Positions 1 to 64,000 of a stretch of 64,000 bases of DNA are shown piece by piece (within the stretch, counting starts at the first letter, position 1; every line of letters begins with the position of its first letter). The stretch is from Heterodontus francisci (taxonomy: Eukaryota), in assembly GCF_036365525.1 (NCBI RefSeq), contig NW_027140807.1:1364001-1428000 (forward strand), given 5' to 3'. The translations under genes were made by a program, and so were the position numbers. The notes under the pieces were generated by a model. It was given only the letters and a program-made list of their open reading frames with translations, searched no databases and was not told the origin of the DNA.

Positions 1-340
1 GCACGTTCGCCACCTGAGCTATCTGGTCCCCAACTTGTGTGTACAAGTTAATTAATAATTATGAACAACTCCATGTAAAATCTTCCAGTATTATAAGCAC
101 TGTATCTGTGGACATCTAACATATTCACAGATGGATGGATAGACGGTACTGTGAATGTTGCTGGCTTTAATGGTCAGGCCCCCTCTCCCCCACCTCCCCA
201 CCCGGTTATTTTATGCGTGTACTTTGTTGTATGGTCAGCTCATGTTAGTCAAAGGGCAATATCAAATATTAATGAGATGGACACTGAAAACTGGCAGGGC
301 GCTATTGAGGAATGTTTTCGTGTGGTCACATGATGATGTG

Positions 341-398
341 GGTGCAGGAAATACCCAGCTATCATATTTTGGAGACGGCACTAAGTTAACACTCCTGG
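341..398 (+). CDS. TRBJ: TCR beta J segment (GAGNTQLSYFGDGTKLTLLG)
   Basis: FGxG motif; GT donor at 399; 12-RSS with nonamer tgttttcgt 313-321 and degenerate heptamer tgatgtg 334-340 (CAC retained). Confidence 0.85.
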
Positions 399-831
399 GT
401 GAGTGAGATATTTGTTGAAACATATCAGTGGTCTCAGTAATTATTAAAACTGTCGGCCAGTTTGTCCCCATCAGTTTGAAGAAAGGGGAGAGACCATAAA
501 CTTTAGAAAAAAACAAAGAGTAACGAAGCAACAGTTAAAACAACTAAACATAGGGCAATGGCGAGGTGGAAATGGAGGAAGGTTAGGGAGGCAAACCTTA
601 TCTACAGAGAGACAGATTGGGAGCAAAATGCAGGGAAAAGGGGACGGAAAATTAGAGAGACAAAGATGGGAGAGGTCGAGACAAAGACAAAAGAAATAAC
701 AAAAAGAGGTAAAGAGGGAAAGGGCGGGGTAACAAATGCAACCCAATACAAAACGATGCAACTGCGCTTAATTAACCGGCGTGTAGAGAGTTAAAGATTC
801 CCTAGCTTTGTTACAACTGTGTAACATTGTG

Positions 832-883
832 TCAGGGAACAATGACTATACATTTGGCGATGGCACAAACCTCGTGGTTTTAG
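832..883 (+). CDS. TRBJ: TCR beta J segment (SGNNDYTFGDGTNLVVLG)
   Basis: heptamer cattgtg 825-831, 12-bp spacer, nonamer agctttgtt 804-812; donor gtaact at 884. Confidence 0.9.
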
Positions 884-1930
884 GTAACTGATTAACGTGG
901 CGTCAGTGAGAATCATTCCGCACGGTCTGATATGGTATAGTCTGATTGAAATTTACAAGATTAATATATGAAGATAACACTAATCATATTGCCTATTCAG
1001 GTGACATCCGTTTCTTAACAATGACCGATTGTGTGTGTGGAAATCAACAAGTGATAGCTGTCTGGGAAATCAGACTCTGAATGGCCTACCCCTGTCCCGA
1101 ATGTTACTCTATTGGTTTAATGCGAGGAGTGAGATAGAGAGTGAGCTTGGTCAAAAAAAGGGTCAAGATGTTTGAAGTGACCAGTTGATGATGCTGGAAC
1201 GCACCATTATTGGTTAAGAATTCACGAGGTGTTGAGTGAGGAAGTGAGGATTAACATTTACAAATCACTGGTAAGGTCCCAGCTGGAGTATTGTGTTCAG
1301 TCCTGGGTACCACACTTTATGACGGTTGTCGAGGCCTTAGATTGGGAGCAGAAATGATTCACCAGAATTGTACCAGAGATGAGGGACCTCAGATAGTTGG
1401 AGAGACTGGAGAACAGAAAAGGTTAAATGGAGATTGAATAGAGGTGTTCAAATTAGTGAAGGTTTTGGATAGAATTAATAATCAGAAACAGTCTCCATTG
1501 GTAGATGGGTCGGTAACCAGAGGACACAGGTTTTGAGGCAATTGACATAAAGGACCAGTGGCGGGATGAAGAGACATTCTCCCACAGAGGTAGTTACTGG
1601 ATCGGGAAGGCATATCTGAACTGGTGGTGGAAGTTGGTTCAGTAGAAACTTTCAAAATGGAAATTGATAGATACTCGAAGGGAAATATACAGGACGATGG
1701 TAAAACCTTTCATAAAGCCAGCAGAGGTCCTATGGGCCGAATGGTCTCCCCTTCAGTGATGGATATTTCTGATTCTATGACCTTGCTCGTGAGCCACAAA
1801 TGTAAATTAGGAGATATATAAACTAAGGAGATGTGATCTACAAACGCTTTCGAGGACAGGGTCCAAGTGTGATATAGACAAGACCTGCACCTCGCCTTGT
1901 GAGGTTTTGTTACAAGGGTCTCTCACTGTG

Positions 1931-1980
1931 TTCTGGCAATCAATATTACTTCGGAAGCGGTACCAAGTTAGTTGTGACAG
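1931..1980 (+). CDS. TRBJ: TCR beta J segment (SGNQYYFGSGTKLVVTG)
   Basis: heptamer cactgtg 1924-1930, nonamer ggttttgtt 1903-1911; donor gtgagt at 1981. Confidence 0.95.
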
Positions 1981-2282
1981 GTGAGTCCAGGAATGTTAGG
2001 CCAATTCTGAGAATGCATGTTGTCTGAAATGGTCGGAAAGATGTTTAAGGCTCCGGGTTCATTGGTGAAAGACATTTTTCCAATGCATTTAAGATACAAA
2101 CAGAGACAGAGAGAGAGAGAAGGAGAAAGACTGATTCTTGAACTGGATATGTGTTTAAAGAAGGGAAAATTTCTCCCATTTAGCTTACTATGGACAAACA
2201 AACAAGAGCTGTATTATTCACTCAAATATTCGGCAACTTTTCAGGGACCAGTCTAGTTTAGTAACAGGGCTGAAACACTGTG

Positions 2283-2335
2283 TTCTGGAAGCTACGACTA
2301 TTTCTTTGGTGACGGGACAAAACTGACTGTGTTGG
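2283..2335 (+). CDS. TRBJ: TCR beta J segment (SGSYDYFFGDGTKLTVLG)
   Basis: heptamer cactgtg 2276-2282, nonamer agtttagta 2255-2263; donor gtgagt at 2336. Confidence 0.93.
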
Positions 2336-3391
2336 GTGAGTTGGACGTTCTTTGAAAAACAATGATTGCAGCTCACGCTGTTTCTGAGTTTCAGTTTGCA
2401 ACTGAAATGTTGCATTGACAAGTAACAAAAAAATTTCAGGCAGCATTTCCAATGTGCATAAAAGCCAGAATACATGGAAAATACTAAGATGCACAGGGAA
2501 AGACATTTTTTTAATTCGTTCGTGGCATGTGGACCAGAATTTATTGCCCATCCCTAATTGCCCTCTGAGTGGTTTGCGAGCTCATTTTTTTTCATCAGAT
2601 ATGGGCGTCGCTGGCAAGGCCAAGATTTGTTGGCCAACCCTAATTGCTCTTGGACTGGGTGGTTTGATGTTTCAGAAGGCAGTTGCGAGTCAACTGAAGT
2701 CTGAAGTCACTTCTCTGACAACAGGCGGGATTTTCTGACAATTGACGATAGTTTCATGCAGTTAAACCAGACTTTCATTTATCAGTTGAAGTTTAATTCC
2801 TCTAGCTACCCTCGGGATTTGAACCAGAACATTACTAGCACAGTAACATTATCACTTTGCAACCATCGCCCCTGCACTCAATGGGGTGTAGGTCTTTCCG
2901 CAGTCCTGTCAGGGAGGCAGTAGCAGATTTATTAACCGTTTTCTCAGAGGGCAGATTATTTGTTTCCAAAAAATGCTGTCATCGTTCTTCCCCCAGAATG
3001 AGTGAAATAAAACATCATAATTACATTTAATTATATAGAATTTACAGTGTGTAAGCAAACCAGTGGTGAAACTGCACACGAGCCTCCTCTCACCCTTACT
3101 TCATCTAATCTTCTATTCCTTTCTCTCCCATGTCTTTTTCCAACTCACTCCTTGAAAGCATCTCCACAATTCACCTCAACCCATTCCCTGTGGTAGTGCA
3201 TTCCACATTATTACCACTATCTGAGTAACGAACTTCCCTTTCTATTCCTCACAATGATTTTCTAATTAACATTATAATGCCCTTAACATAAAGAGTCAAA
3301 TCTCCAGTGCATTCTGTGTGAGGTTTTGCATCAGTGCACCAGCTTCATTGCTCTTCGACCTGTAGTTATACTATTGTCATGTAACATTGTG

Positions 3392-3444
3392 TACAGGAAA
3401 TACTCCGTATTACTTCAGTGACGGGACAAAATTGATTGTTTTAG
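3392..3444 (+). CDS. TRBJ: TCR beta J segment, non-canonical FSDG (TGNTPYYFSDGTKLIVLG)
   Basis: heptamer cattgtg 3385-3391, weak nonamer agttatact 3364-3372; donor gtgagc at 3445. Confidence 0.82.
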
Positions 3445-3945
3445 GTGAGCACAGAACAGAAGCTTTTGTTGTTTTCGTTAATGAGGATATTTGAGATTCT
3501 CAGACGAAATTAGATGCTCTAAAATACATCATGTTCTCGGTCACAGAATCACCTCGCCGATTTATATTGGCAGCCGGACCTGCAATATCTTGGTTTAAGT
3601 GCTTTCACATTTGTTTTCAACTCAACCCAAGGCCTCGCTGTCTCCCTGTCCCGTCCTCCGGCCCCTACAAACCTCCCTATCCCTGTAACCGCCTCCAGCC
3701 TCTATAACTCTCCGTATCCCTGCAACATCCTCCAATCCCGACAAATCTCGCTGTCTCTGTAACCTCCACCAGGCCCTATAACTAACCTTTTGTTCTCCTG
3801 ACCAATATCTAGGGTGCATTGCCGCTGTCTTTACATCACACATTCATAGTATGTAAATCTACAATTTGAGTACATCATTTCGAAGACGGTGCATTTTAGC
3901 ATTTCTAACTAGATGGGAGTTTTAACACTGACAGGCATCACTGTG

Positions 3946-3998
3946 CTCAAATAACTACGATTATACTTTTGGCGATGGGACCAAGTTAGTAGTTTTCG
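3946..3998 (+). CDS. TRBJ: TCR beta J segment (SNNYDYTFGDGTKLVVFG)
   Basis: heptamer cactgtg 3939-3945, nonamer agttttaac 3918-3926; donor gtaggt at 3999. Confidence 0.92.
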
Positions 3999-4668
3999 GT
4001 AGGTGAACGGTTTCAGCATTGTATTCATTTTACAGTTTAATTGCTATTATGTTGCCTCCAATGGGGAGTGGAGAGGGTTTAGTTAATGATTTGACCCAAT
4101 CTCCAGCCTGCCTTTAAAAGAGATTAATTTGCTTCTCTTTTAGAGTAACACTATTGTTAAATTGTTCCATTCACTATCCACTGGGATAGTCAAACTTGAT
4201 AAAGCCATTTGTTGGTCTATTGTTATATTCTGTGATTGCCCACAACTCTCCATTATTCTAGTTATCAATGGGAATATCAAGAATCTCATTGTAGCTTTTT
4301 ATGTGAAACTAAAGCCGTACTGGGATGTCGAACATCAGATATTTTGATGGAAAACCCTCTGATTTCACCTCTCGCAGAGGAATCCGTAGTAAAAGTACAT
4401 GATAATAATTGATTGTAAAAGATCTCTGGAACTCCCTCTTCAACAAAAAGCTGTGAATCCTGGAGGGCGATTAGACCTGACAAAATTGAGATGGAAATAA
4501 CTTTGTTTGGGGAGGTTATCGAGGGATATCGAGATCAGATTGGTAAATGAAGTGAGGTACAGATCAGCCTTTGAATAGAGGAGCAGGATAGAGGGGCTGA
4601 ATGGCCGCCTCCTTGTGCAATAGGTTGTCTGGAGGGTAATAGTTTTGTAATGGGAGTGTAACACTGTG

Positions 4669-4724
4669 TTATGGAAAGACCGAACCATTATATTTTGGCC
4701 AAGGGACCAAGCTCACAGTTTTGG
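4669..4724 (+). CDS. TRBJ: TCR beta J segment (YGKTEPLYFGQGTKLTVLG)
   Basis: heptamer cactgtg 4662-4668, nonamer agttttgta 4641-4649; donor gtatgt at 4725. Confidence 0.93.
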
Positions 4725-4759
4725 GTATGTAAATGTTAAAGGCTTTGTTTGTCTAACTA

Positions 4760-5280
4760 GTCCTTGAAGCGGCCAACACTCCCAGCTTATACACACTACT
4801 GAGTCAGCGGCGCTTGAGATGGCTTGGCCATGTGAGCCGCATGGAAGATGGCAGGATCCCCAAAGACACATTGTACAGCGAGATCGCCACTGGTATCAGA
4901 CCCACTGGCTGTCCATGTCTCCGCTATAAAGACGTCTGCAAACGCGACATGAAATCGTGTGACATTGAAAACAAGTCGTGGGAGTCAGTTGCCAGCGTTC
5001 GCCAGAGCTGGCGGGCAGCCATAAAGACAGGGCTAAATTGTGGCGAGTCGAAGAGACTTAGTAGTTGGCAGGAAAAAAGACAGAGGCGCAAGGGGAGAGA
5101 CAACTGTGCAACAGCCCCGACAAACAAATTTCTCTGCAGCACCTGTGGAAGAGCCTGTCACTCCAGAATTGGCTTTTATAGCCACTCCAGGCGCTGCTTC
5201 ACAAACCACTGACCACCTCCAGGCGCGTATCCATTGTCTCTCGAGATAAGTAGGCCCAAAAGAAAGAAAAGAAAGAAGAA
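4760..5280 (+). mobile_element. RTE-clade LINE 3' fragment
   Basis: ORF 4814-5212 RWLGHVSRMEDGRIPK...RYKDVCKRD plus C-terminal CxxC...H zinc-finger-like tail typical of RTE ORF ends; (GAA)n-like 3' tail. Confidence 0.85.
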
Positions 5281-6458
5281 GGGATAGTCTATCATCATAT
5301 TCTGTAGTTTCCCATTACTGTCCAGTTTTCGAATTATCAACCAGCACATCGACAATCTTATTATCCTTTCAAAAATATAGAAAATGCTGTGTGACATTAA
5401 ACCGACAGAGAAGTGCATTGGGTTGTCTAACGTAGAATGTTATGGTGGAAATGCCTTCTTGTGATTGGCTGAATTGTTTTGGAATTGGGAGACATTCCTC
5501 AGGCTCTTTTCTCAGGAGGGTTATTGGGTGGAGTAGAATCCAGGATAGACATGGCTGTAAAGACATGACCCTAATACTTTTGTCAATCCATACTTTATGG
5601 GCTTGCAGCCAAAATTAAGTCAACAATTCTGAGCTGTTGCCGCATAAAATTGTTAACCTCACACTAATTAATAAAAATGACCTCTTCGATTTTGTTTTAG
5701 AAGATTGTGCTTTGCCTTCATCCGTATAAAATTCAATCCCATTCTTAAACAGAGTTTGTTCAGCTTGTTATGATTAACGTCCTGAAGCAGTGATCTTCTG
5801 GAATGAATGCTCACTGTTGATAATGGGACAGACTTCTAAAAAAAACAGTTGATGGAAATAATTAGACAAATATGCATGTTGGACACAAGAATACCACTCG
5901 GCCCATCTCACTAGAGTCGGCTGTTGGAAAAAGCTCTCCAATTCGCCCAACTCACCCCTTTTCTTTCTATACAGCCCTGCAATTTTCGCCTTTTTGAACT
6001 ATGCTCCAATTCTTTTTTGAAGTTCAATATGCAATCAGTATCTATCACATTTTCAGGTAATGCATTCCATATCACAACAAGTCGTTGTGTAAAGAAATGG
6101 CCCCTCAATAAACATCTGGATCTTTTGCCAATTGCCTTAAATCTATGTTCTCTGGTTGTGAAATCTCCGGCCAGTGGAATCAGTCTCCCCCTACTGACTC
6201 TAACAAAGCCCTTCGTGGCTTTGAAATCAACTACTAAATCTCTCCTTCACCTTCTCTGGGAGAACAATCCCACCTTCTCCAGTCTGTCCACATAACTGAG
6301 TCCCTCATTTCTAGGACCATTCCAGTAAATCTCTCTCTGCACGCTCTCCAAGACCTTGACATCCTTCCAAAAGTGTGGTGCCCTGAATTGGGCACGAGAC
6401 TCCAGCTCAGGCGTAACTGAGGGCCCTGGTAGTTTTACAACTGGCCTGTGACATTGTG

Positions 6459-6507
6459 TTCAGCTGGGACCTCGATCTCTTAATTTGGCTCTGGGATTAC
6501 GTTCTAG
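6459..6507 (+). pseudogene. TRBJ: TCR beta pseudo-J (SAGTSIS*FGSGITF*)
   Basis: good 12-RSS (agttttaca 6431-6439, cattgtg 6452-6458) and FGSG motif, but in-frame TAA and a shortened/frameshifted 3' end. Confidence 0.8.
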
Positions 6508-7064
6508 GTAGGTAAACAAGAATAGATCTCAATATTCAAATTTAATTCGTTCTAAGTGTTCATTCATTGCTTCGTAATTCTGCCAAAACTCACAAACCTG
6601 GCCACGTACTGGAAAACTTGAGAAAATTTGTATCCCAAGATGCACAATTTTGCAAAGACAACGTTACCAGACTTCTCTGTGTCTACCCTCTGGAACCCCC
6701 CAACCCTTTCATAATCTTAGACGCCTCTTTCAGGTCACCTCTAAGCCTTCTCTTATCTATCATAAAGGCTATTCAGTTTTTCTTGATAGGTAAATATGTA
6801 TGAAGACGAGAACTGTGCACAGTGATCCAAGTGTGGTCTAACCGAGGGATATGGAGACCAGAACTGTGCACAGAGCTCCAAGAACGTCTAAGCAAATTTT
6901 ACCATAATTTCTCTGCTTTAAAATGGAATGGTGGAGAAAAGGACAGACAAATCTACACATTGCAATTGGTTGAATTATAATTGTTCCAAGGTGTCAGAGC
7001 ATTCGATGAAGTATCGTGTAATCATTGGTCCCCAGCAGTTTTAATACTGCTTTGTAACACTGTG

Positions 7065-7120
7065 TTCTGGAAACAGCACACCTCTCCGCTTTGGCGATGG
7101 GACAAGATTAACAGTTCTGG
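7065..7120 (+). CDS. TRBJ: TCR beta J segment (SGNSTPLRFGDGTRLTVLG)
   Basis: heptamer cactgtg 7058-7064, nonamer agttttaat 7037-7045; donor gtatgt at 7121. Confidence 0.92.
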
Positions 7121-7756
7121 GTATGTAAAACCGAGCGATGTGTCCCCCCAGTGGTCAATGTAAAAGCATTAATCTTCACCAATGTAAAAGCAGAGAGGCA
7201 AGGCTCAACTAGTAGTGATTATCTTAAAGGCTGAACTCAGGAAGGGCCACTGTCGAGTTTATAACAGATGCAAACCCGAGTCAACGATTTTGAAAGGACT
7301 CCAATCAAACACAAGAAGCCACAAAGGACCATTCATCCCTTGAGCCTCTTCCACCATTCACTTAAATCATGGCTGAGTTTTATCTTAGCTCCAGCTACCG
7401 TCTTTGGTCCCATAACCTTTAACACACTGACCCAACAAAAATGATTGAATGTAATAAACAAAGACTAGATCTAGTCAAGGTTGTAGAAGATTAGATACTA
7501 AATGGCAAACTCACCTAGTCTTCCTTCAAGAAAATAACTAAATTGAGTGCATAAGGAATTGACTTACATTTATGCTGAAACACTATTTCAAATCAGAATT
7601 CAAAGTGAGAGGTACGTGGCAATGTCCAAACAGTTTAACAATTTCACTACTTGCTTTCTTGGCATACTAAATAAATATAGGGAACAAGCTACTGCATTGG
7701 CAGTCTACGGGAACTGTTAGGCAATCCTAGTTTTCTGATAGGAATGTAGCATTGTG

Positions 7757-7808
7757 GATGTAACTACTAACTTTCATTTTGGCCCCGGTTCCAAATTAAC
7801 AGTGTTGG
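7757..7808 (+). CDS. TRBJ: TCR beta J segment (DVTTNFHFGPGSKLTVLG)
   Basis: heptamer cattgtg 7750-7756, nonamer agttttctg 7729-7737; donor gtaagt at 7809. Confidence 0.9.
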
Positions 7809-8825
7809 GTAAGTTTTAAAAAATATAACGTTTTGAGTGCGTCAATTAAGTTAGTTGTATATTTACCCATGGCATTGCACTCCAGTACATAACTGCACAG
7901 TGCTGTATGTCTGACCCTGCTACCCAGATTTCCCTCGTTGCCCCACTTATTACCAAATTATCGTAATAATTATTATATTTATTTCGCAATATTTCAGCAA
8001 GATGTATTCTGAAAACAAGTAGGATAAAGCAGAGAAGATTAAGTGGTGGTGGGAGGATTGATACCAGGGAGAAAGGATTTCAGCTTTGCAGAGAGACTGG
8101 AAAAGCTGAATATTGTTCTCCTTGGAGCAGAGAAGGTTAAAGAAGATTTGCCAGTGTGGTACCAGGGATGAATGACTTCAATTGTGTGGAGATACTGGAG
8201 AAACTGGGGTTGTTCTCCTCAGAGAAGAGAAGGTTAAGGTGGGAATTAATATCATATTCAAAATGTCCAAAATCATATGTTTTGTAATAGAGTAAATAAG
8301 AATAACTCATTTCTGCTGGGAGAAGGGTCGGTAAGCAAAGAGAACAGATTTGTGATTGGCAAAAGAAACAAAGAGGGAGATGAGTATTTGCTTTTATACA
8401 GCCAGTTGTTGTGATGTGGAATGCACTGCCTGAAAATAGCTCAAACAATGCATTTGATGCATACTTGAAGGCTAACAAATGTAGGGTTATGGTGAAACAG
8501 CAAGAAGCTCTGGGTGTTCGCAGAAGATTGAGCAACCTGAAGGCTTAATTCTAATTGGTATCCTCTGATGCAGTGCGACATAGTACTTGTCTGCATCTTT
8601 AATATTGACTAATATCCAATAATAACAGCAAACAAAGCACAGGAGTTCCTTTGCAGGGGATTGGCTAGCATTCCAAAGCACAGAAGTTACATGAAACTTA
8701 TATAGAACTTTGGTTAGATCGTTGCAATTACAATGAATTTCGATGTAAAATCCCCAGCGCCAACTCCATCCATCTAGAGGGGAGAGACACTCTTGTTAGT
8801 TTTAGTGTAGGGTTGCAGCATGGTG

Positions 8826-8876
8826 CTTCAGGATATGAACAGTATTCTGGAGGGGGCACGAAGCTAAGCGTTTCAG
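8826..8876 (+). CDS. TRBJ: TCR beta J segment, F>S in FGxG (SGYEQYSGGGTKLSVSG)
   Basis: heptamer catggtg 8819-8825, nonamer agttttagt 8798-8806; donor gtgagt at 8877. Confidence 0.8.
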
Positions 8877-10429
8877 GTGAGTAGCTGACAGTACAAGAGG
8901 TCTCAGTTAATGATGGATGGACCAAGGTCTGCTGTTGTTATACGGATGCAGTTCTCTAATTGTGGGGAGGGATTTTAGCAGATGAACACGAGGATTCATT
9001 TCACGTGTAGGGGACATTTACGCGGGATTAGTGCATTGTTCTGTCAGTGAGGCGGTGGCTCCTTATTTCTGTAACTTCCTCTGGACCTAAAAGAAACCAT
9101 GATGATTTCTCTGTGCTCCTCCAATTCTGGCCTCTTGTGCATCCTCCCCTCCCTCGAACCCACCATTGGCGGCTGTGCCTTCAGCTGCCTGAGCCCTAAA
9201 CCCTGGAATTCCCTCCTTAAACACCTCTGCTTCTCTCCCTCTCTCCTTCTTTAAGAAGCATCTTAGAACCTACTTCTTTGACAGGTCACCTGTCCCTAAT
9301 ATCTACTTCGATAACTCGGGATCAAGTTGTTGTCTGAGTTGCTCTTATATTGAGATTTTTCACTGCATCAACGGTGCTAGATAAATGCAATTTTTTTTGT
9401 TATTAATCACCAGGTAGGCCTCGCCTGGAGTATTGTGACCAATTCGTGTCTAACACACTTTGGGAAGGATGTCAAGGCCATAGAGAGGGTGCAGAAGATG
9501 TTTACTAGAATGGTACCAGACATGGGAAGGTTTCACTTGTGTGTCGAAATGGGAGAAGCTGGGATTGTTCTCCTTAGAGCAGAGAAGGCGAAGGGGAGAT
9601 CAGTGTTGTTTTATTAAACTTATTCTTAAAATAAAGACACATTCGCAAGTAACCAGGAAAAGCAGACAAAATATAAAGGGAAAATTAATTGAAGACAAAC
9701 AACAGCGACGCGAATCCCAGAGGGAGGAAGTCCCAATAAAAGTACAATTGTTAAGACCAAAATTAAACTTGCGTTCAGCCCCTTTGCAAACAGGCAGATT
9801 TTGGACAGCAACGTGCGCAAGGCACTTTCGTGTATTGCAGCAAAGGTACCAAACTAACGAGTGCTAGGTAAAGACGCACCATTGTCAAACTACATCTGTC
9901 AATTGCAGCTCAACTGGTTGAGAAAGAGACCAGTTCTCAAAATACAGCTTGGGTTTAAGTATTTCAGTGAAGTTACACAGTGGTGACACTCTTACCTCCG
10001 AGTCAAAAAAAAAAGCGAATTCCACATTCTCACTATTCTCTGGGTGAAGAGGAGTCTCCTGAAATCTCCATTGGTTCAATATTCAGAACAAAAATGTAAC
10101 AAAATTAGGCATCAGTCATTATGTTAATGATTGTATCATTTTAATATTCATGGCATTCTCACAGAGTCTTGACTGTAAACCCAAACCTGTTCAGGTATTT
10201 CTTTCGCAATATTACGCTCATAGAGCTTTAGAGTTAAAGAACTGACTGTGCAGTGTAGTCACTGTTGTAATGTAGGGAAAGATTTCAGCCAAAATGCGCA
10301 CAGCAAGATCCCACAAGCATCATTGCACTAAATGACCAGATAACCGGAAATGGTGGATGTGAAGTGTTGAATGACGGATAAATATTGGCTCGGACACACT
10401 CCCCTTATTTTCTTTGAGCCAATACATTG

Positions 10430-37589: not shown

Positions 37590-37815
37590 AGTGGTGGGAC
37601 TCTGGAGGACAATCTGTGAGTTCACATCTGGGAAAGAGATGGGTCGAAAATGACGCCAGGACACTCTGGATTATCGAGGAAGAAGGATGGAAGGGAGGAA
37701 TGAAAGCGTCAAGGAGAGAAGGAAATTATAAAGTAAAGAAAATTATTAAGCAGCATTATGTTTCATAAAGTTCCTTATGGTGGGAGATGGTCATCAGACC
37801 CAGTAACAGATACAT
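37590..37815 (-). pseudogene. TRBV: Family-1 V pseudogene with internal deletion (DVNSQIVLQSPTT only)
   Basis: leader MYLLLGLMTISH without donor; acceptor 37628-37630; V start fused directly to post-RSS flank. Confidence 0.75.
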
Positions 37816-50169: not shown

Positions 50170-53100
50170 AGATGTTGATTCTCAAATAGTCAGGTGGGAC
50201 TCCTGGCAAACGTTTTCTGCAACACTGGCCCGAGGGATGTAGGTGGAACAATATTTGGGTCATACTGGGCTGCTGATCTATTCTACAGCTTGGTCTGTGC
50301 TCATTTTGGATATACCGTTTTGGATACTGTTGGGGGGGGGACGACTTACCAGGGGTAAGCAATGGGGTACAGGTCTCTGGTGCAGAGTCTGTCCCTGTTG
50401 CTCAGAAGGGAAGGGGGAAGAGGAGCAGAGCATTAGACATTAGGGACTCCATAGTTAGGGGAACAGAGAGGAGGTTCTGTGGGAACGAGAGAGACTCACG
50501 GTTGATGTGTTGCCTCCCAGGTGCCAGGGTTTGTGATGTCTCGGATAGTGTTTTTGGGATCCTTAAGGGGTAGGGGGAGCAGCCCCAAGTCGTGGTCCAC
50601 ATAGGCACCAACGACATAGGTAGGAAGAGAGATGTGGATTTAAGGCAGAAATTCAGGGAGCTAGGGTGGAAGCTTAGAGCGAGAACAAACAGAGTTGTTA
50701 TCTCTGGGTTCTTGCCCGTGCCACGTGCTAGCGAAGCGAGGAATAGGGAGAGAGAGGAGTTGAACACGTGGCTGCAGGGATGGTGTAGGAGGGAGGGTTT
50801 TGGTTTCCTGGATAATTGGGGCTCTTTCTGGGGTAGGTGGGACCTCTACAAACAGGATGGTCTTCACCTGAACCAGAGGGGTACCAATATCCTGGGGGGG
50901 GAGATTTGCTAGTGATCTTCGGGGGGGTTTAAACTTATTCAGCAGGGGGATGGGAACCTAAATTGTAGTTCCAGTGTACAGGCTGTTGAAAGTAGTGAGG
51001 TAGGGGATAAGGTTACAGGGACGCAAGAGGGCACTGGCAAGCAAGAACTTGGTTTAAAGTGTGTCTACTTCAACGCCAGCAGCATCCGGAATAAGGTGGG
51101 TGAGCTTGCAGCATGGGTTGGTACCTGGGATCTCGATGTTGTGGCCATTTCGGAGACATGGGTAGAGCAGGGACAGGAATGGATGCTGCAGGTTCCGGGA
51201 TTTAGATCTTTCAGTAAGAACAGAGAAGATGGTAAAAGAGGGGGGTGGGGGTGGGGTGTGGCATTGTTAATCAAGGAGAGTATTACGGCGGCAGAAAGGA
51301 CGTTTGAGGACTCGTCCACTGAGGTAGTATGGGCCGAGGTTAGAAACAGGAGAGGAGAGGTCACCGTGTTGGGAGTTTTCTATGGACCTGTGGGGCGCCA
51401 CAGTGGCACAGTGGTTAGCACTGCAGCCTCACAGCTCCAGGGACCCGGGTTTGATTCTGGGTACTGCCGATGTGCAGTTTGCAAGTTCTCCCTGTGTCTG
51501 CGTGGGTTTTCTCCGGGTGCTGCGGTTTCCTCCCACAAGCCAAAAGACTTGCAGGTTGGTAGGTAAATTGGCCATTATAAATTGTCACTAGTATAGGTAG
51601 GTGGTAGGGAAATATAGGGACAGGTGGGGATGTTTGGTAGGAATATGGGATTAGTGTAGGATTGGTATAAATGGGTGGTTGATGGTCGGCACAGATTAGG
51701 TGGGCCGAAGGGCCTGTTTCAGTGCTGTATGTCTAATCTAATCTAATCTAGACCTCCGAATAGTTCCAGAGATGTAGAGGAGAGGATAGCAAAGATGATT
51801 CTCGACAGCAGCGAGAGTAACAGGATAGTTGTTATGGGGGACTTAAACTTTCCAAATATTGACTGGAAATACCATAGTTTGAGTACTTTAGATGGGTCAG
51901 TTTTTGTCCAGTGTGTGCAGGAGGGTTTTCTGACACAGTATGTAGACAGGCCAACCAGGGGCGATGCCACATTGGATTTGGTACTGGGTAATGAACCCGG
52001 CCAGGTGTTAGATTTAGATGTAGGTGAGCACTTTGGTGATAGTGATCACAATTCGGTTAGGTTTACCTTAGCAATGGGCAGGGACAGGCATATACAGCAG
52101 GGCAAGAATTATAGCTGGGGGAAAGGAAATTATGATGCGATTAGGCAAGATTTAGGATGCGTAGGATGGGGAAGGAAACTGCAGGGGATGGGCACAATCG
52201 AAATGTGGAGCTTATTCAAGGAGCAGCTACTGCGTGTCCTTGATAAGTATGTACCTGTCAGGCAGGGAGGAAGTTGTCGAGCGAGGGAGCCGTGGTTTAC
52301 TAAAGAAGTTGAAGCGCTTGTCAAGAGGAAGAAGAAGGCTTATGTTAGGATGAGACGTGAAGGCTCAGTTTGGGCGCTTGAGAGTTACAAGCTAGCCAGG
52401 AAGGATCGAAAGGGAGAGCTTGGAAGAGCGAGGAGAGGTCACGAGAAGTCATTGGCGGATAGGATCAAGGAAAACCCTAAGGCTTTCTATAGGTATATCA
52501 GGAATAAAAGAATGACTAGAGTTAGATTAGGGCCAATCAAGAATAGTAGTGGGAAGTTGTGTGTGGAATCAGAGGAGATAGGGGTTGCGTTAAATGAATA
52601 TTTAGCATCAGTATTTACAGTAGAGAAAGAAAATGTTGTCGAGGAGAATACTGAGATACAGACTACTAGGCTAGATGGGATTGAGGTTCACAAGGAGGAG
52701 GTGTTAGCAATTTTGGAAAGTGTGAAAATAGATAAGTCCCCTGGGCCAGATGAGATTTATCCTAGAATTCTCTGGGAAGCCAGGGAGGAGATTGCAGAGC
52801 CTTTGTCCTTGATCTTTATGTCGTCATTGTTGACAGGAAAAGTGCCGGAAGACTGGAGGATAGCAAATGTTGTCCCCTTGTTCAGGAAGGGGAGTAGAGA
52901 CAGCCCTGGTAATTATAGACCTGTGAGCCTTACTTCGGTTGTGGGTAAAATGTTGGAAAAGGTTATAAGAGATAGGATTTATAATCATCTTGAAAAGAAT
53001 AAGTTCATCAGCGATAGTCAGCACGGTTTTGTGAAGGGTAGGTCGTGCCTCACAAACCTTATTGAGTTTTTTGAGATGGTGACCAAACAGGTGGATGAGG

Positions 53101-54265
53101 GTAAAGCCGTGGATGTGGTGTATATGGATTTCAGTAAGGCGTTTGGTAAGGTTCCCCACGGTAGGCTATTGCAGAAAATACGGAAGTATGGGATTGAAGG
53201 TGATTTAGTGATTTGGATCAGAAATTGGCTCGCTGAAAGAAGACAGAGGGTGGTGGTTGATGGTAAATGTTCATCCTGGAGTTTAGTTACTAGTGGTGTA
53301 CCGCAAGGATCTGTTTGGGGGCCACTGCTGTTTGTCATTTTTATAAATGACCTGGATGAGGGTGTAGAAGGGTGGGTTAGTAAATTTGTGGATGACACAA
53401 ATGTCGGTGGAGTTGTGGATATTGCCGAAGGATGTTGTTGGTTACAGATGGACATAGATAGGCTGCAGAGCTGGGCTGAGAGATGGAAAATGGAGTTAAA
53501 TGCGGAAAAGTGTGAGGTGATTCACTTTGGAAGGAGTAACAGGAATGCAGAGTACTGGGCTAATGGGAAGATTCTTGGTAGTGTCGATGAGCAGAGAGAT
53601 CTTGGTGTCCAGGTACATAAATCCCTGAAAGTTGCCACCCAGGTTAATAGGGCTGTTAAGAAGGCATACGGTGTGTTAGTTTTTATTAGTAGGGGGATCG
53701 AGTTTCGGAGCCACGAGGTCATGCTGCAGCTGTACAAAACTCTGGTGCGGCCGCACCTGGAGTATTGCGTGCAGTTCTGGTCACCGTATTATAGGAAGGA
53801 TGTGGAAGCTTTGGAAAGGGTACAGAGGAGATTTACTAGGTTGTTGCCTGGTGTGGAGGGAAGGTCTTATGAGGAAAGGCTGAGGGACTTGAGGTTGTTT
53901 TCGTTGGAGAGAAGGAGGAGGAAAGGTGACTTAATAGAGACATATAAGATAATCAGAGGATTAGATAGGTTGGATAGTGAGAGTCTTTTTCCTCAGATGG
54001 TGATGGCAAACACGAGGGAACATAGCTTTAAGTTGAGGGGTGATAGATATAGGACAGATGTCAGAGGTAGTTTCTTTACTCAGAGAGTAGTAGGGGCGTG
54101 GAACGCCCTGCCTGCAACAGTAGTAGACTCGCCAACTTTAAGGGCATTTAAGTGGTCATTGGATAGACATATGGATGAAAATGGTATAGTTTAGGTCAGA
54201 TCGTTTCACAGGTCGCCGCAACATCGAGGGCCGAAGCGCCTGGACTGCGCTGTAATGTTCTAAGG
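50170..54265 (+). mobile_element. Near full-length CR1-type LINE (ORF1 SGNH esterase, ORF2 endonuclease+RT)
   Basis: GDS...GTND...DGLHLN in ORF1; NASS/ISETW/GDLN/SDH endonuclease; 799-aa open RT segment 51795-54194. Confidence 0.95.
51391..51748 (+). mobile_element. tRNA-derived SINE (HE1-like) inserted in LINE ORF2
   Basis: A/B box-like head (TGGCACAGTGG...GGTTTGATTC), (CTAAT)n tail, flanking gacct duplication. Confidence 0.88.
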
Positions 54266-54307
54266 TCTGTGTTCTATTACTGGGTCCATAACCATCAGGG
54301 AGGCTCA

Positions 54308-54530
54308 AATCCACTGCTGCCAACTGCTGGTGGAAAATGAGCACTGAGATTCAATCTACTGCTGCCCCCTGCCGGTGGAAGATGAGCACAGCGATTCAAT
54401 CTACTGTTGCCCCCTGTCGGGGGAAAATGAGGACAGACATTCAATCTACTGCTGCCCCTGCTGGTGGAAGATGAACACTGACATTCAATCTACTGCTGCC
54501 CCCTGCCGGTGGATGATGAGCACTGAACTC
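54308..54530 (-). repeat. 45-bp tandem array (5 copies) of CTCF-type motif adjacent to V RSS
   Basis: unit on - strand ..CAGTGCTCATCTTCCACCGGCAGGGGGCAGCAGTAGATTGA; same family as 35461-35846. Confidence 0.88.
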
Positions 54531-54585
54531 CCGTTCATCCGCTGCAGGTTCTTGCAGCTGCGAATCCGCTTTCTCAAACACTGTG

Positions 54586-55418
54586 CGATACTGCAAGCAC
54601 AGAAATAGACAGCGGTGTGAGATGGAGCAGCGTTTCTCAGTGCCAAAGTAAACAGTGCATTGCTGGATCTGACTGCATTAAATGACTCAGACGTGTAATT
54701 TGTAACAGACCCTTCTGTCGCAGAATAGAACAGAGATTCCAGTGCCCTGTCTGGTTGTTGTCTGTACCAGTACATTAATGTACAGCCAGGATTGGTCAGC
54801 GTGCATCTGAGTGTTGTTGAATCTCCTGCTGCAATCGATAGGATAGAGGGCGACTGTTCCACATAGGAGGCGAGTATTCCTGTGGGATGGAACATCGATT
54901 AAATTATTATTTCAGTCAATAATGGATTGGAGCAGGAGCTGCATTGCAAGAAAGAAAGGGCTGACATTAATATAGCGCCGTTCAGGACCTCAAGACATCA
55001 GAAAGGCTTTGCAACCAATGTAGTTACTCCCTCAGTACTGCCTCTGCGACAGTGCAGCACTCCCTCAGTACTGCCTCTGCGATAGTGCAGCACTCCCTCA
55101 GTACTGCCTCTGCGACAGTGCAGCACTCCCTCAATACTGCCTCTGCGATAGTGCAGCACTCCCTCAGTACTGCCTCTGCGATAGTGCAGCACTCCCTCAG
55201 TCCTGCCTCTGCGACAGTGCAGCACTCCCTCAGCCCTGACACCTGGGGTGTTACTTTTGACTTTGAGCTCAAGTGTTGTGGAGTGAGACTCAGACACAGG
55301 AGTGTTCCAGACAGAATCACCGCTGACATTACAATACATTATTCTACACAGTTTCTGACTTTCACTTACGTGGAAAGAATGCAGCCATCAAGATTAAACA
55401 GAGAACTTCATGCAACAT
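54586..55418 (-). CDS. TRBV: TCR beta V, family 2, apparently functional (leader 55370-55418 MLHEVLCLILMAAFFP; V exon 54586-54879)
   Basis: VEQSP, C, WYRQ, YFCACS; 23-RSS cacagtg 54585-54579, gcaagaacc 54555-54547. Confidence 0.92.
55025..55235 (+). repeat. 33-bp tandem repeat (cactccctcagtactgcctctgcgacagtgcag)x6 within a SINE remnant in the V intron
   Basis: directly visible; resembles a common shark SINE-core tandem. Confidence 0.85.
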
Positions 55419-57072: not shown

Positions 57073-57528
57073 AAGACTCCAGGCACAGAAATACATGGCT
57101 GAGTGATTCTCCCGCAGGTTGGAGGACTCCAGTTTGAACTCGTACTTATTCAGTTTCTTGGCGGTAAAACCGTCCACCGTCCCCTCTGGATCCACATAGT
57201 TAGCAGTATTGGAGTAAAACATCAACAGCGGCTCCTTCCCTGGCTCTTGTCTGTACCAGTACATGTAGATGTTACTGCTGCTCCCCTCCACTGTGCACCT
57301 CAGTTCCACTCCTTTCCCGGGAAATCTGGAGACAGCAGCGGGAGTCTGGAGGATAGTCTGTGAGTTCACATCTGGGAGAGAGATGGAGAGAGGAGGAGAT
57401 CAGTAAACAGGGAACTTCTGGGAATGAAAGGGAGACAGGGAGAAGAGGGGACAGTTATTACCGATAGTTTTTGCATTTCACATTCACTTACAATGAAACA
57501 AGATTATCAGACACAGTAACAGATACAT
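57073..57528 (-). CDS. TRBV: TCR beta V, family 1, apparently functional (leader 57492-57528; V exon 57073-57371)
   Basis: open frame, WYRQ, YFCAWSL; 23-RSS 57034-57072 with consensus heptamer and nonamer. Confidence 0.94.
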
Positions 57529-62883: not shown

Positions 62884-63639
62884 GTTTGCTGTGGATCTGA
62901 GAGACTTTCTGCTGGTTACTCTGGGTTTTAAGGGAGGGAGAGAGATGAGGTGTAGGCAGAGCGGATCGTCATCAAAGGAAGTTATCTCAAGGCAATGATC
63001 CCCGCCCCTACCTTTAAGTTGTCCCCCATTCTTTTGTTTGCTTCCTTCCGCCCCTTTCCACTTGTTTCTTCTCTCCATTTCCCTCCTTCCTCCCCACTTT
63101 CTACTCTGCTGCCAATATCTTCACTCTCTTCCCTTTGTGAGCTTGCTTTCATGCTGAATCGAGGGAAATTTTGAAGGTAGCGAGGTGTTGGAGAGGGTAG
63201 GTGAAAAAAGCAAGGAGCGGTGCAACAATAGCTGCTTTGGGTGACTCCAGAGCTTATGGCGCACAACAGGGGATTATTAACATCCTTTTGCAAATTAAAA
63301 TCAGTAGTGGAGGAAGAGAAGGTGGATAGTTCGATGGCAGTGGCGGCGGCTCATATAACATCACTGTAAAGTGGAAATCTAACTGCATTTAGCCTTTAAA
63401 GTGAAAAGATTGCGGAAGCAGAGGAATTGACTCATTGATCAGCGGCGCCAAAGCCTGTGGTGGCGCGAAATATAGTGGAGCCACTGCGCCGACCAGTGGC
63501 AGCATGGTGCAACTGCAACAAGCTGTGTTTGTTACTTTCCCAGTGAAACCCATGCTGTGGGCTTCTTCAAGTCAATTCCCGAAATTCATCCTCCTTCTCA
63601 GTGTTTCATCCTCTCCTGCAGAGGATTATTACCCGCAGA

Positions 63640-63974
63640 ATTAACGATACAAATTCAGTCTTTGTCCTAATTTCCTGCCAGTATCTGTACAGATGTAAAG
63701 CAGAAGAGTGAAATCTACATGAGCAAAAGTGGGTGTAGATGTTATATGGTTAACAGTATATTCTTCACACTTTTGTTGCCAAAAAAGGGGGAACAGATTA
63801 ATGAGTTCACTGTCTTATATTCAATAATTGATTGCTGATTTCACAAGTCACCGCCGCACAGTCTTGTTGAGATCATTAATCAGTTGATCAAATGTAGAGC
63901 AGTGATTGTGACAGAATTTAAACATACTCAGCGACAGAAGGAAAATAGCAAACGTCGATGAAATTGAATGGCAT
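63640..63974 (-). pseudogene. TRBV: Duplicated family-3 leader + intron, frameshifted, V exon absent
   Basis: 63640-63974 parallels 62540-62883; 47-bp leader (1-nt insertion); homology stops before the acceptor. Confidence 0.75.
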
Positions 63975-64000
63975 GTTTGCGGCGGAATTAAGACACTTTC

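What the first reader, a model, noticed from the sequence alone, without database searches (positions are those of the whole stretch)
54308..54585. RSS-adjacent CTCF array directly behind a V-beta segment
Seen: five copies of the same 45-bp family (CCGGCAGGGGGCAGC / CCAGCAGGGGCAGC cores) begin about 20 bp past the nonamer of the family-2 V 23-RSS, in the same orientation as the 35.5-kb array. Established: RSS-proximal CBEs (e.g. mouse VH81X) boost V usage during RAG scanning. Inference: this V may be preferentially rearranged, and the 35.5-kb array may be the relic 3' flank of a deleted V, since an orphan leader sits right next to it at 35917-35953.
Basis: partly seen in the sequence, partly recalled or inferred. 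Interest (0 to 1): 0.75.

Follow-up and report, generated by a model that had tools for sequence, protein, structure and literature searches.

The report
Tandem CTCF motifs behind shark Vβ
Just behind the recombination signal of a backwards-facing T-cell-receptor beta V gene in a shark sits a five-copy 45-base repeat whose units all match the CTCF motif and whose position appears to be shared with a distantly related shark; it likely anchors a chromatin loop that would help dock this V family at the D-J region, but binding and any effect on V usage are untested.

Summary
There are 4.9 copies of a 45-bp unit at 54308-54526, 20 bp past the nonamer of an intact TCR-beta V. All 5 units match a recalled CTCF matrix (p 2e-7 to 2e-5) and face the D-J-C end. 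The locus is shark TCR-beta (C exon identical to horn-shark records), and all V segments in the window lie inverted 3' of C. A sawshark gene model reads through the orthologous V, RSS and two units without a gap, so the element likely predates the deepest shark split. The interpretation needs changes. (1) Inverted Vs cannot be reached by VH81X-type linear scanning; the closer models are mouse Trbv1's 3' CBE (promotes use) and CBE3 (restrains Trbv31). (2) The array is a family trait. Laid contigs show other family-2 copies, some with arrays and some apparently with one damaged unit. The window's V has a weaker nonamer than all of them. (3) The orphan leader is family 1, so the 35.5-kb array is a relic only if the deletion ran from a family-1 intron through a whole family-2 V. 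There are no binding or usage data, and changes within the arrays do not spare the motif. New variant of a known kind.

The parts
54308..54526 (-). Array B: 4.9 tandem 45-bp units, each an upstream-motif-like 5-mer plus a CTCF-like core facing D-J-C
54494..54512 (-). Core of unit 1, 19.4 bits, p 1.7e-7, 34 bp past the nonamer
54449..54467 (-). Core of unit 2, one G short, 12.5 bits; laid contigs of 4 of 4 runs show the extra base (only part of the depth in X7)
54405..54423 (-). Core of unit 3, degenerate, 11.7 bits
54360..54378 (-). Core of unit 4, 19.4 bits
54315..54333 (-). Core of unit 5, 15.7 bits
54527..54546 (-). 20-bp linker between nonamer and array; same length in the sawshark read-through
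54547..54585 (-). 23-RSS: consensus heptamer, nonamer with two mismatches (positions 1 and 5)
   Evidence: for the position-5 difference from all laid contigs
54586..54879 (-). Intact family-2 TCR-beta V exon, inverted relative to J-C
55370..55418 (-). Leader exon of the family-2 V
   Evidence: spliced leader-like loose end at 54879 in X5 and X6
35461..35837 (-). Array A: 8.4 units of the same family, same orientation, at the C-proximal edge of the inverted V cluster; TGCAG at the upstream position in 5 of 6 scoring cores
35917..35953 (-). Orphan family-1 leader exon, closest to the leader of V57.0
19721..19739 (-). Single strong CTCF-like site (18.5 bits) between C-beta and the V cluster; position and direction as mouse CBE3
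   Evidence: PMC10772921 passage
12225..15369 (+). C-beta exons (12225-12575, hinge about 12897, TM about 14291, tail 15343-15369)
340..8880 (+). J-beta cluster; 8 J segments with a 12-RSS listed, and one more J motif at 2305
51747..54262 (+). LINE-type retroelement (815-codon open frame) ending about 45 bp from the distal end of array B
   Evidence: family label CR1-like is recalled
57073..57528 (-). Intact family-1 V immediately upstream of the family-2 V; no array behind its RSS

Best explanation
The 45-bp array is a tandem amplification of a full-length CTCF motif that sits 34 bp past the RSS of an inverted family-2 V-beta, and it likely binds CTCF and would stop cohesin loops extruded from the D-J-C/enhancer end, parking this V's RSS at the loop base so that RAG could capture it by short-range diffusion and join it by inversion. 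Shown: the array, its orientation, the inverted geometry and the motif match. Inferred from indirect data: conservation in a sawshark (protein read-through) and presence behind other family-2 copies (contigs). Inferred from mouse genetics only: CTCF occupancy, loop anchoring and a gain in V usage. Any gain would apply to the array-bearing family-2 copies as a class, not to this copy in particular.
For: Five of five cores score p<1e-4, two at 1.7e-7; unit shuffles reach the real score in 0-1 of 4000. An upstream-motif-like xxCAG lies at the recalled spacing in 3 of 5 units of B, and TGCAG in 5 of 6 scoring units of A. Vertebrate CTCF binds the same two-part motif from lamprey to human (PMC5504073 passages). 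All 14 array hits face D-J-C. Sawshark model P0003 aligns without gaps to the window's read-through frame across RSS, linker, unit 1 and unit 2: 12 of 34 identities beyond the nonamer, 0 of 10000 shuffles. Its unit-1 codons allow a 16.1-bit core, a best case reached by 1 of 4266 control windows. The two species lie in Galeomorphii and Squalomorphii. Between arrays A and B, 2 of 19 core columns differ against 10 of 26 others (one-sided p 0.037). Of the 5 listed core substitutions in laid contigs, 3 raise the score. Summed depth over the array in X1 (44-4615) is of the order of the V exon (271-1585) and far below the LINE tail (112,307-344,125), so it is not a high-copy dispersed repeat at 80% likeness. 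In mouse, scrambling Trbv1's downstream CBE cuts its rearrangement about 6-fold, and Tcrb supports inversional, diffusion-based joining (PMC10772921 passages).
Against: There are no binding, contact or usage data. Changes within the arrays do not spare the motif: 16 of 209 core cells against 17 of 231 other cells (11 of 13 units; the two with indels left out). The A-versus-B contrast is lost for high-information columns (1 of 8 against 11 of 37, p 0.30) and for core plus upstream motif (p 0.10). One listed substitution breaks the near-invariant C of unit 1 (-8.5 bits). It occurs in contigs of X1, X5 and X6, and contigs of those runs leave the array after about one unit (loose ends at 54471-54485), so some family-2 copies seem to manage with one damaged site. 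The sawshark's second unit cannot reach the threshold (best case 6.2 bits), and its first does so in only 5% of codon choices. Deleting mouse CBE3, which has the same geometry toward the inverted Trbv31, raises Trbv31 use about 2-fold (preprint passages). The matrix is recalled, not fetched. No convergent partner site upstream of D could be checked, because D lies outside the window.
Confidence: 0.45

Rival explanations
1. CTCF binds, but the tandem expansion is neutral. One ancestral RSS-proximal site was amplified by minisatellite turnover and co-duplicated with the V family; the extra units have no measurable effect on V use.
For: Within-array changes hit core and spacer equally. Joints in all 4 runs skip or repeat whole units, which suggests unit number or order varies (table 5; misplacement among similar units could also cause this). 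Some paralogs seem to keep one damaged unit. The sawshark's second unit is degenerate. The window holds several other minisatellites.
Against: Amplification of this same motif-bearing unit occurs twice in the locus, both times facing D-J-C. Core columns differ less between the arrays than spacer columns (p 0.037). The 45-bp period is kept in the sawshark.
Confidence: 0.25
2. The arrays are insulators of the CBE3 / 3'Igh-CBE type. They stop loops from the enhancer and recombination centre, restrain the nearby inverted V segments and favour upstream V segments or confine each duplicated cluster.
For: Mouse CBE3 lies between E-beta and inverted Trbv31, faces upstream, and its loss doubles Trbv31 use. 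Ten clustered 3'Igh CBEs face upstream behind C (PMC10293834 passages). Array A sits at the C-proximal edge of the V cluster. Horn-shark gene models place another V family upstream of D-J-C (P0008, P0010, P0011). Clustered sites block extrusion stepwise (PMC10497529 passages).
Against: Array B lies 35 kb from the likely enhancer, behind two nearer barriers (19.7 kb and 35.5 kb), and is tied to one V family's RSS at a fixed distance in two shark lineages. That fits a V-specific role better than a locus boundary. This reading fits array A better than array B.
Confidence: 0.2
3. It is an ordinary GC-rich minisatellite that resembles the CTCF motif by chance and is not bound.
For: Motif matches alone predicted CTCF binding poorly in Hox clusters (PMC5504073 passage). 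CpG in the B cores could be methylated. Outside the arrays the scan gives 14 hits against about 12 expected.
Against: Unit shuffles reach the real score in 0-1 of 4000. The motif is two-part with recalled spacing, the position behind the RSS is conserved, and the family is not high-copy.
Confidence: 0.06
4. One reading: the array stalls linear RAG scanning as the VH81X CBE does and makes this V dominant.
For: The order V - RSS - CBE facing the recombination centre is the same as for VH5-2/VH81X, whose CBE loss cuts use 50-fold (PMC10293834 passage). A minus-strand D-J-C cluster left of the window would restore deletional geometry, and the species appears to have several C-beta copies.
Against: With the J-C cluster in the window, the V and J RSSs have identical orientation, which scanning cannot join. 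This copy's nonamer is the weakest of the 7 V RSSs in the window and weaker than in all laid contigs.
Confidence: 0.04

Closest known systems
Mouse Trbv1 3' CBE (PMC10772921)
   Same: TCR-beta V with a downstream CTCF site facing the D-J centre; anchors loops; the locus supports inversional, diffusion-based joining.
   Different: Single site, upstream V in deletional orientation, function shown by mutation. Here there are five tandem sites behind an inverted 3' V, function untested.
Mouse Tcrb CBE3 (PMC10772921; bioRxiv 10.1101/2024.10.13.618029)
   Same: Lies between enhancer/C and an inverted V, on the V's RSS side, facing upstream.
   Different: Single site near the enhancer that restrains Trbv31. 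The better positional match in the window is the single site at 19721-19739 or array A; array B is 35 kb further out and fixed to one V family's RSS.
Igh RSS-associated CBE of VH5-2/VH81X (PMC10293834)
   Same: CTCF motif a few tens of bases past a V 23-RSS, facing the recombination centre.
   Different: Works by impeding linear RAG scanning toward convergent RSSs. The shark V is inverted relative to the J-C in the window, and the element is a tandem array.
Ten clustered 3'Igh CBEs (PMC10293834)
   Same: Many same-direction CTCF sites 3' of the constant region, facing upstream.
   Different: Not attached to a V RSS; recalled as separate sites over kilobases rather than a 45-bp repeat.
Tandem-repeat CTCF arrays DXZ4, FIRRE, ICCE, DXPas34 (search listing only; details recalled)
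   Same: CTCF motif carried in each unit of a tandem repeat.
   Different: X-chromosome architecture in mammals, not antigen-receptor loci; mostly much longer units.

Membership tests
CTCF-binding element (CBE) | Core motif match above chance | tested here: met
   5 of 5 units p<1e-4 with a recalled matrix; shuffles 0-1 of 4000
CTCF-binding element (CBE) | Upstream (M2) motif at the canonical spacing | tested here: inconclusive
   xxCAG in 3 of 5 B units; TGCAG in 5 of 6 scoring A units; spacing recalled, no matrix used
CTCF-binding element (CBE) | CTCF occupancy in vivo | not testable with these tools
   None of the 13 runs listed is described as ChIP; 9 carry no library record
CTCF-binding element (CBE) | Purifying selection on motif positions | tested here: inconclusive
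   A versus B core p 0.037, high-information columns p 0.30, no sparing within arrays; position kept in a sawshark
RSS-associated CBE of VH81X type | Lies just 3' of a V RSS and faces the recombination centre | tested here: met
RSS-associated CBE of VH81X type | V RSS convergent with the recombination-centre RSS (deletional, scannable) | tested here: not met
   J and C on +, V on - beyond C; holds for the J-C cluster in the window
RSS-associated CBE of VH81X type | Raises use of its V | not testable with these tools
   Only contigs were available, which cannot rank expression
CBE3-type boundary | Between enhancer/C and inverted V, facing upstream | tested here: met
   enhancer position is only a motif guess
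CBE3-type boundary | Insulates the enhancer and restrains the inverted V | not testable with these tools
   needs deletion or contact data
High-copy dispersed repeat | Many genomic copies unlinked to V genes | tested here: not met
   Depth over the array is of the order of the V exon and far below the LINE tail in X1; only 13 units in the window. Tested at 80% likeness to array B only; no genome held
TCR-beta V segment | Leader, intact V exon, 23-RSS, homology to TCR-beta chains | tested here: met

The most novel reading that the evidence does not exclude
Sharks kept an RSS-proximal CTCF anchor on one inverted V-beta family since before the Galeomorphii-Squalomorphii split and turned it into a back-to-back 45-bp minisatellite. 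Its unit number acts as a tunable dial on V usage across duplicated TCR-beta clusters. Together with a CBE3-like site behind the likely enhancer, this would place CTCF-anchored folding of Tcrb at the origin of jawed-vertebrate V(D)J recombination. The family's array-bearing and single-damaged-unit copies would be a natural dose-response experiment.
Probability: 0.2. Interest if true: 0.8.

Novelty: new variant of a known kind. Interest (0 to 1): 0.55.

Why it matters
Almost everything known about CTCF in V(D)J recombination comes from mouse. A V-linked CTCF element conserved across the deepest split among sharks, plus a CBE3-like site, would indicate that this control is as old as the receptors. 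The tandem form is unusual. Near-identical family-2 V copies seem to differ in the number of intact units, so ordinary repertoire sequencing could test whether such sites promote or restrain inversional joining, a point on which the two mouse precedents (Trbv1 CBE, CBE3) pull in opposite directions. I found no description of the element in searches of the held library; that library lacks most subscription journals.

Tried and rejected
No whole genome is held, so genome-wide copy number and the sites upstream of D could not be examined. An exact two-unit pattern found 0 matches in metagenome contigs; this is uninformative for a shark. Run search: no RNA holder listed on record. Three runs guessed to be RNA and one guessed to be DNA were laid (4 of 13 listed; at most 2 samples); all are contigs, so V usage could not be ranked. 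Only 791 bases around the finding were laid, so no other V family and not array A were covered. Rfam gave one sub-threshold hit (18 bits against a gathering score of 37), so a known structured RNA is rejected. A coding role is rejected: the read-through frame hits a stop at the end of unit 1. An RSS relic or family-2 homology in the 79 bp between orphan leader and array A was sought against 11 targets; the best were 9 and 15 of 300 shuffles, not significant over 11 tests. No further V exon was found near array A by tblastn, though four N gaps at 32.6-34.2 kb could hide one. Earlier findings of the scan: nothing in 4 look-ups. The solved-structure search of the C exon was ambiguous between Ig and TCR-beta constant domains; one search settled it. 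No paper on shark TRB genomic layout or on horn-shark TCR-beta clusters turned up. A switch-like or AID-target role was considered from the GCAGC/AGCT content and dropped without a test, because TCR loci do not class-switch.

Full report
Locus. The window is a shark TCR-beta locus. J segments with 12-RSS lie on the plus strand at 0.3-8.9 kb (8 listed, one more motif) and C exons at 12225-15369. C exon 1 is 115-116 of 116 residues identical to six Heterodontus francisci records, so the window is most likely horn shark. Those records come with four different contig lengths plus one without a contig, and two transmembrane variants, which points to several C-beta copies; haplotypes could account for part of this. 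A multi-cluster TCR-beta in horn shark is something I recall from 1990s papers; searches did not return them. All V segments in the window are on the minus strand beyond C: family 1 at 39.2, 46.6 (pseudogene), 48.9 (stop codon), 57.0 and 58.7 kb (fragment); family 2 at 54.6 kb; family 3 at 62.1 kb. No D and no upstream V lies in the window. Gene models P0008, P0010 and P0011 chain a fourth V family upstream of C.

Observation. It is confirmed as described. There are 4.9 units of 45 bp at 54308-54526, 20 bp past the nonamer, with the first core 34 bp past it, in the same direction as the 8.4 units at 35461-35837. With a CTCF count matrix recalled from memory, 5 of 5 units of array B and 6 of 8 units of array A score p<1e-4. 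All 14 array hits are on the minus strand, so they face D-J-C. Outside the arrays there are 14 hits against about 12 expected. Shuffling four single units reached the real score in 0, 0, 1 and 0 of 4000 trials. An upstream-motif-like 5-mer sits at the recalled distance: TGCAG in 5 of 6 scoring A units, xxCAG in 3 of 5 B units. Each 45-bp unit is therefore about one full two-part CTCF site laid end to end. The two-part motif is the same from lamprey to human (PMC5504073, passages); the same paper warns that motif scans alone predicted binding poorly in Hox clusters. A profile of the 13 units finds no further copy in the window.

Is it a family trait? Contigs of four coded runs were laid on 54230-55020 at 80% likeness (X1, X5 and X6 are one sample of organism A, X7 is organism B). 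In X1 the V exon is held both by a contig with 0 differences at depth 24.6 and by one with 15 differences at depth 247, and one contig over the RSS spacer has depth 338. The tool warns that depth is not copy number, so I take this only as a hint of roughly ten family-2 copies. Contigs bridge the nonamer into unit 1 in X5 (record 12) and in organism B (record 28, continued by record 27 into unit 2). Array-like contigs cover the distal units in X1, X5 and X7. Not all carry it whole: contigs in X1, X5 and X6 have the near-invariant C of core 1 changed (-8.5 bits), and contigs of those runs leave the array after about one unit (loose ends at 54471 and 54485). Joints that skip or repeat whole units occur in 4 of 4 runs, which suggests variable unit number, though misplacement among similar units could mimic it. 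Summed depth over the array in X1 (44-4615) is of the order of the V exon (271-1585), against 112,307-344,125 on the LINE tail, so the unit is not a high-copy dispersed repeat at this likeness. X5 and X6 show a loose end at the V exon's 5' edge that matches the leader exon in 20 of 22 letters by eye, as expected of spliced family-2 transcripts.

Is this copy special? The evidence says no. Its nonamer has G at position 5, whereas all laid depth in 4 of 4 runs has A there. The other six V RSSs in the window have 0 or 1 nonamer mismatches against its 2. That position 5 matters for RAG binding is recalled. Of 16 substitution rows shown inside the array (40 rows shown in all, 67 not shown), 5 fall in cores: 3 raise the score, 1 is neutral and 1 lowers it. 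Two of 5 rows in the upstream motif restore CAG, and an inserted base restores the fifth G of unit 2. The window's copy is thus a somewhat decayed member of the family, or carries assembly errors. Contigs from better units mapping onto worse ones would bias this count upward.

Age. The family-2 V has homologs in epaulette shark, sawshark and nurse shark (63-72%) and catshark (59%). The sawshark record P0003 is a gene model, named as an aldehyde dehydrogenase, that runs on through the V, its RSS and beyond. Its tail aligns without a gap to the window's read-through frame: 12 of 34 identities beyond the nonamer, 0 of 10000 shuffles, covering the linker, unit 1 and a second unit at the same 15-codon period. 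Codons for unit 1 allow a 16.1-bit core, a best case reached by 1 of 4266 control windows; the true DNA is unknown and only 5% of codon choices pass threshold. Unit 2 cannot pass (best 6.2 bits). The two sharks belong to Galeomorphii and Squalomorphii, so an RSS-proximal element with at least two units likely predates that split (recalled as over 200 million years). This rests on one predicted protein.

Selection. The evidence is mixed. Between arrays A and B, 2 of 19 core columns differ against 10 of 26 others (p 0.037), but the contrast is not significant for high-information columns (p 0.30) or core plus upstream motif (p 0.10). Within arrays, core and other columns change equally (16 of 209, 17 of 231). 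Eleven of 13 units were used; two with indels were left out.

The 35.5-kb array. The leader beside it is family 1 (31 of 37 bases to the V57.0 leader, 13 of 37 to family 2), no RSS relic lies between them, and no other V in the window has the array behind its RSS. One modified relic model fits. V57.0 is the gene directly upstream of the family-2 V, so an old copy of the block V57.0 / family-2 V / array, with a deletion from the family-1 intron to the array, would give leader plus array. The leader regions are 72% identical and the arrays 68%. This is inference; an independent boundary array at the edge of the V cluster is equally open.

Mechanism. V and J RSSs in the window have the same orientation, so joining is by inversion. 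Linear RAG scanning cannot do that, and Tcrb can use diffusion-based synapsis (PMC10772921, passages). The VH81X model (PMC10293834, passages) therefore shares the anatomy but not the mechanism, unless a minus-strand D-J-C cluster lies left of the window. Two mouse precedents remain. Trbv1's downstream CBE anchors loops, and scrambling it cuts rearrangement about 6-fold. CBE3 lies between E-beta and inverted Trbv31 and faces upstream; deleting it doubles Trbv31 use (bioRxiv 10.1101/2024.10.13.618029, passages). The window has a nearer CBE3 candidate, a single 18.5-bit site at 19721-19739, and array A lies between it and this V. I therefore favour a V-specific docking anchor for array B (0.45), over a bound but neutral expansion (0.25), an insulator (0.2), chance likeness (0.06) and linear scanning (0.04). 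Clustered sites block extrusion more fully than single ones (PMC10497529, passages), which gives a reason for amplification but no proof.

Literature seen. Passages only: PMC11754216 (inverted 3' TRBV in amniotes, salmonids and some amphibians), PMC10772921, PMC10293834, PMC5504073, PMC10464911, PMC10832218, PMC10497529, PMC12698447 and the preprint above. Search listing only: the DXZ4, FIRRE, ICCE and DXPas34 papers. No supplements were read; they could hold shark TRB maps or CTCF peaks. Searches returned no description of this element or of shark TRB CTCF sites.

Verdict. It is a real, probably ancient, V-family-linked tandem array of CTCF motifs, and a new variant of the known V-associated CBE. 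Function is untested, and the claim that this V is preferentially used has no support here. Interest 0.55.

Noticed in passing
window 39211-62883 (-): A cluster of at least seven inverted V-beta segments or fragments of three families lies 3' of C-beta in a shark. Family 1 ends in CAWS, as mammalian inverted TRBV30 does (recalled). The papers read report the inverted 3' V for amniotes, salmonids and amphibians, not for sharks.
   Followed up: partly
window 18900-19050 and 19721-19739: A stretch with Runx-, Ets- and E-box-like words (motifs recalled) may be the E-beta enhancer. A single strong CTCF-like site facing upstream follows it, the layout of mouse E-beta and CBE3.
   Followed up: partly
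window 56617, 48293, 37305 (-): A conserved weak CTCF-like element (12.2 bits each) lies in the 3' flank of three family-1 V genes or relics, facing D-J-C. The copies are duplicates, so they are not independent.
   Followed up: partly
window 63480-64000 (-): A copy of the family-3 leader and intron (76% identical) has no V exon; a two-part CTCF-like word below the p<1e-4 threshold follows it. This is a second V-less relic.
   Followed up: no
window 37300-37815 (-): A family-1 relic lacks most of the V exon and the RSS; the deletion runs from near the first cysteine to beyond the RSS and is not RSS-precise.
   Followed up: partly
proteins P0006-P0011: Six horn-shark records have a C-beta exon 115-116 of 116 identical to the window's, with four different contig lengths and two TM variants, which suggests several recently duplicated TCR-beta clusters.
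   Followed up: partly
protein P0003: A sawshark record named aldehyde dehydrogenase 3B1 isoform X2 is a fused gene model that ends in a family-1 V start, a family-2 V and its RSS flank; it shows the same V order as the window.
   Followed up: yes
window 54471-54622, run X5: Contigs of a run guessed to be RNA cross the RSS into the array while part of the V intron (54905-54957) has no cover, a weak hint of spliced germline transcripts reading through the array.
   Followed up: no
window 51747-54262 (+): A retroelement with an 815-codon open frame ends about 45 bp from the array; a paralog contig in X5 continues into different sequence at 54276, so the insertion is not shared by all copies.
   Followed up: partly
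window 32617-34179: Four of the window's 11 N gaps lie just distal to array A and could hide a V exon for the orphan leader.
   Followed up: no
window 35519, 35564, 35788 (-): Array A units hold a second, overlapping CTCF-like register (10-12 bits) across the unit junction.
   Followed up: no
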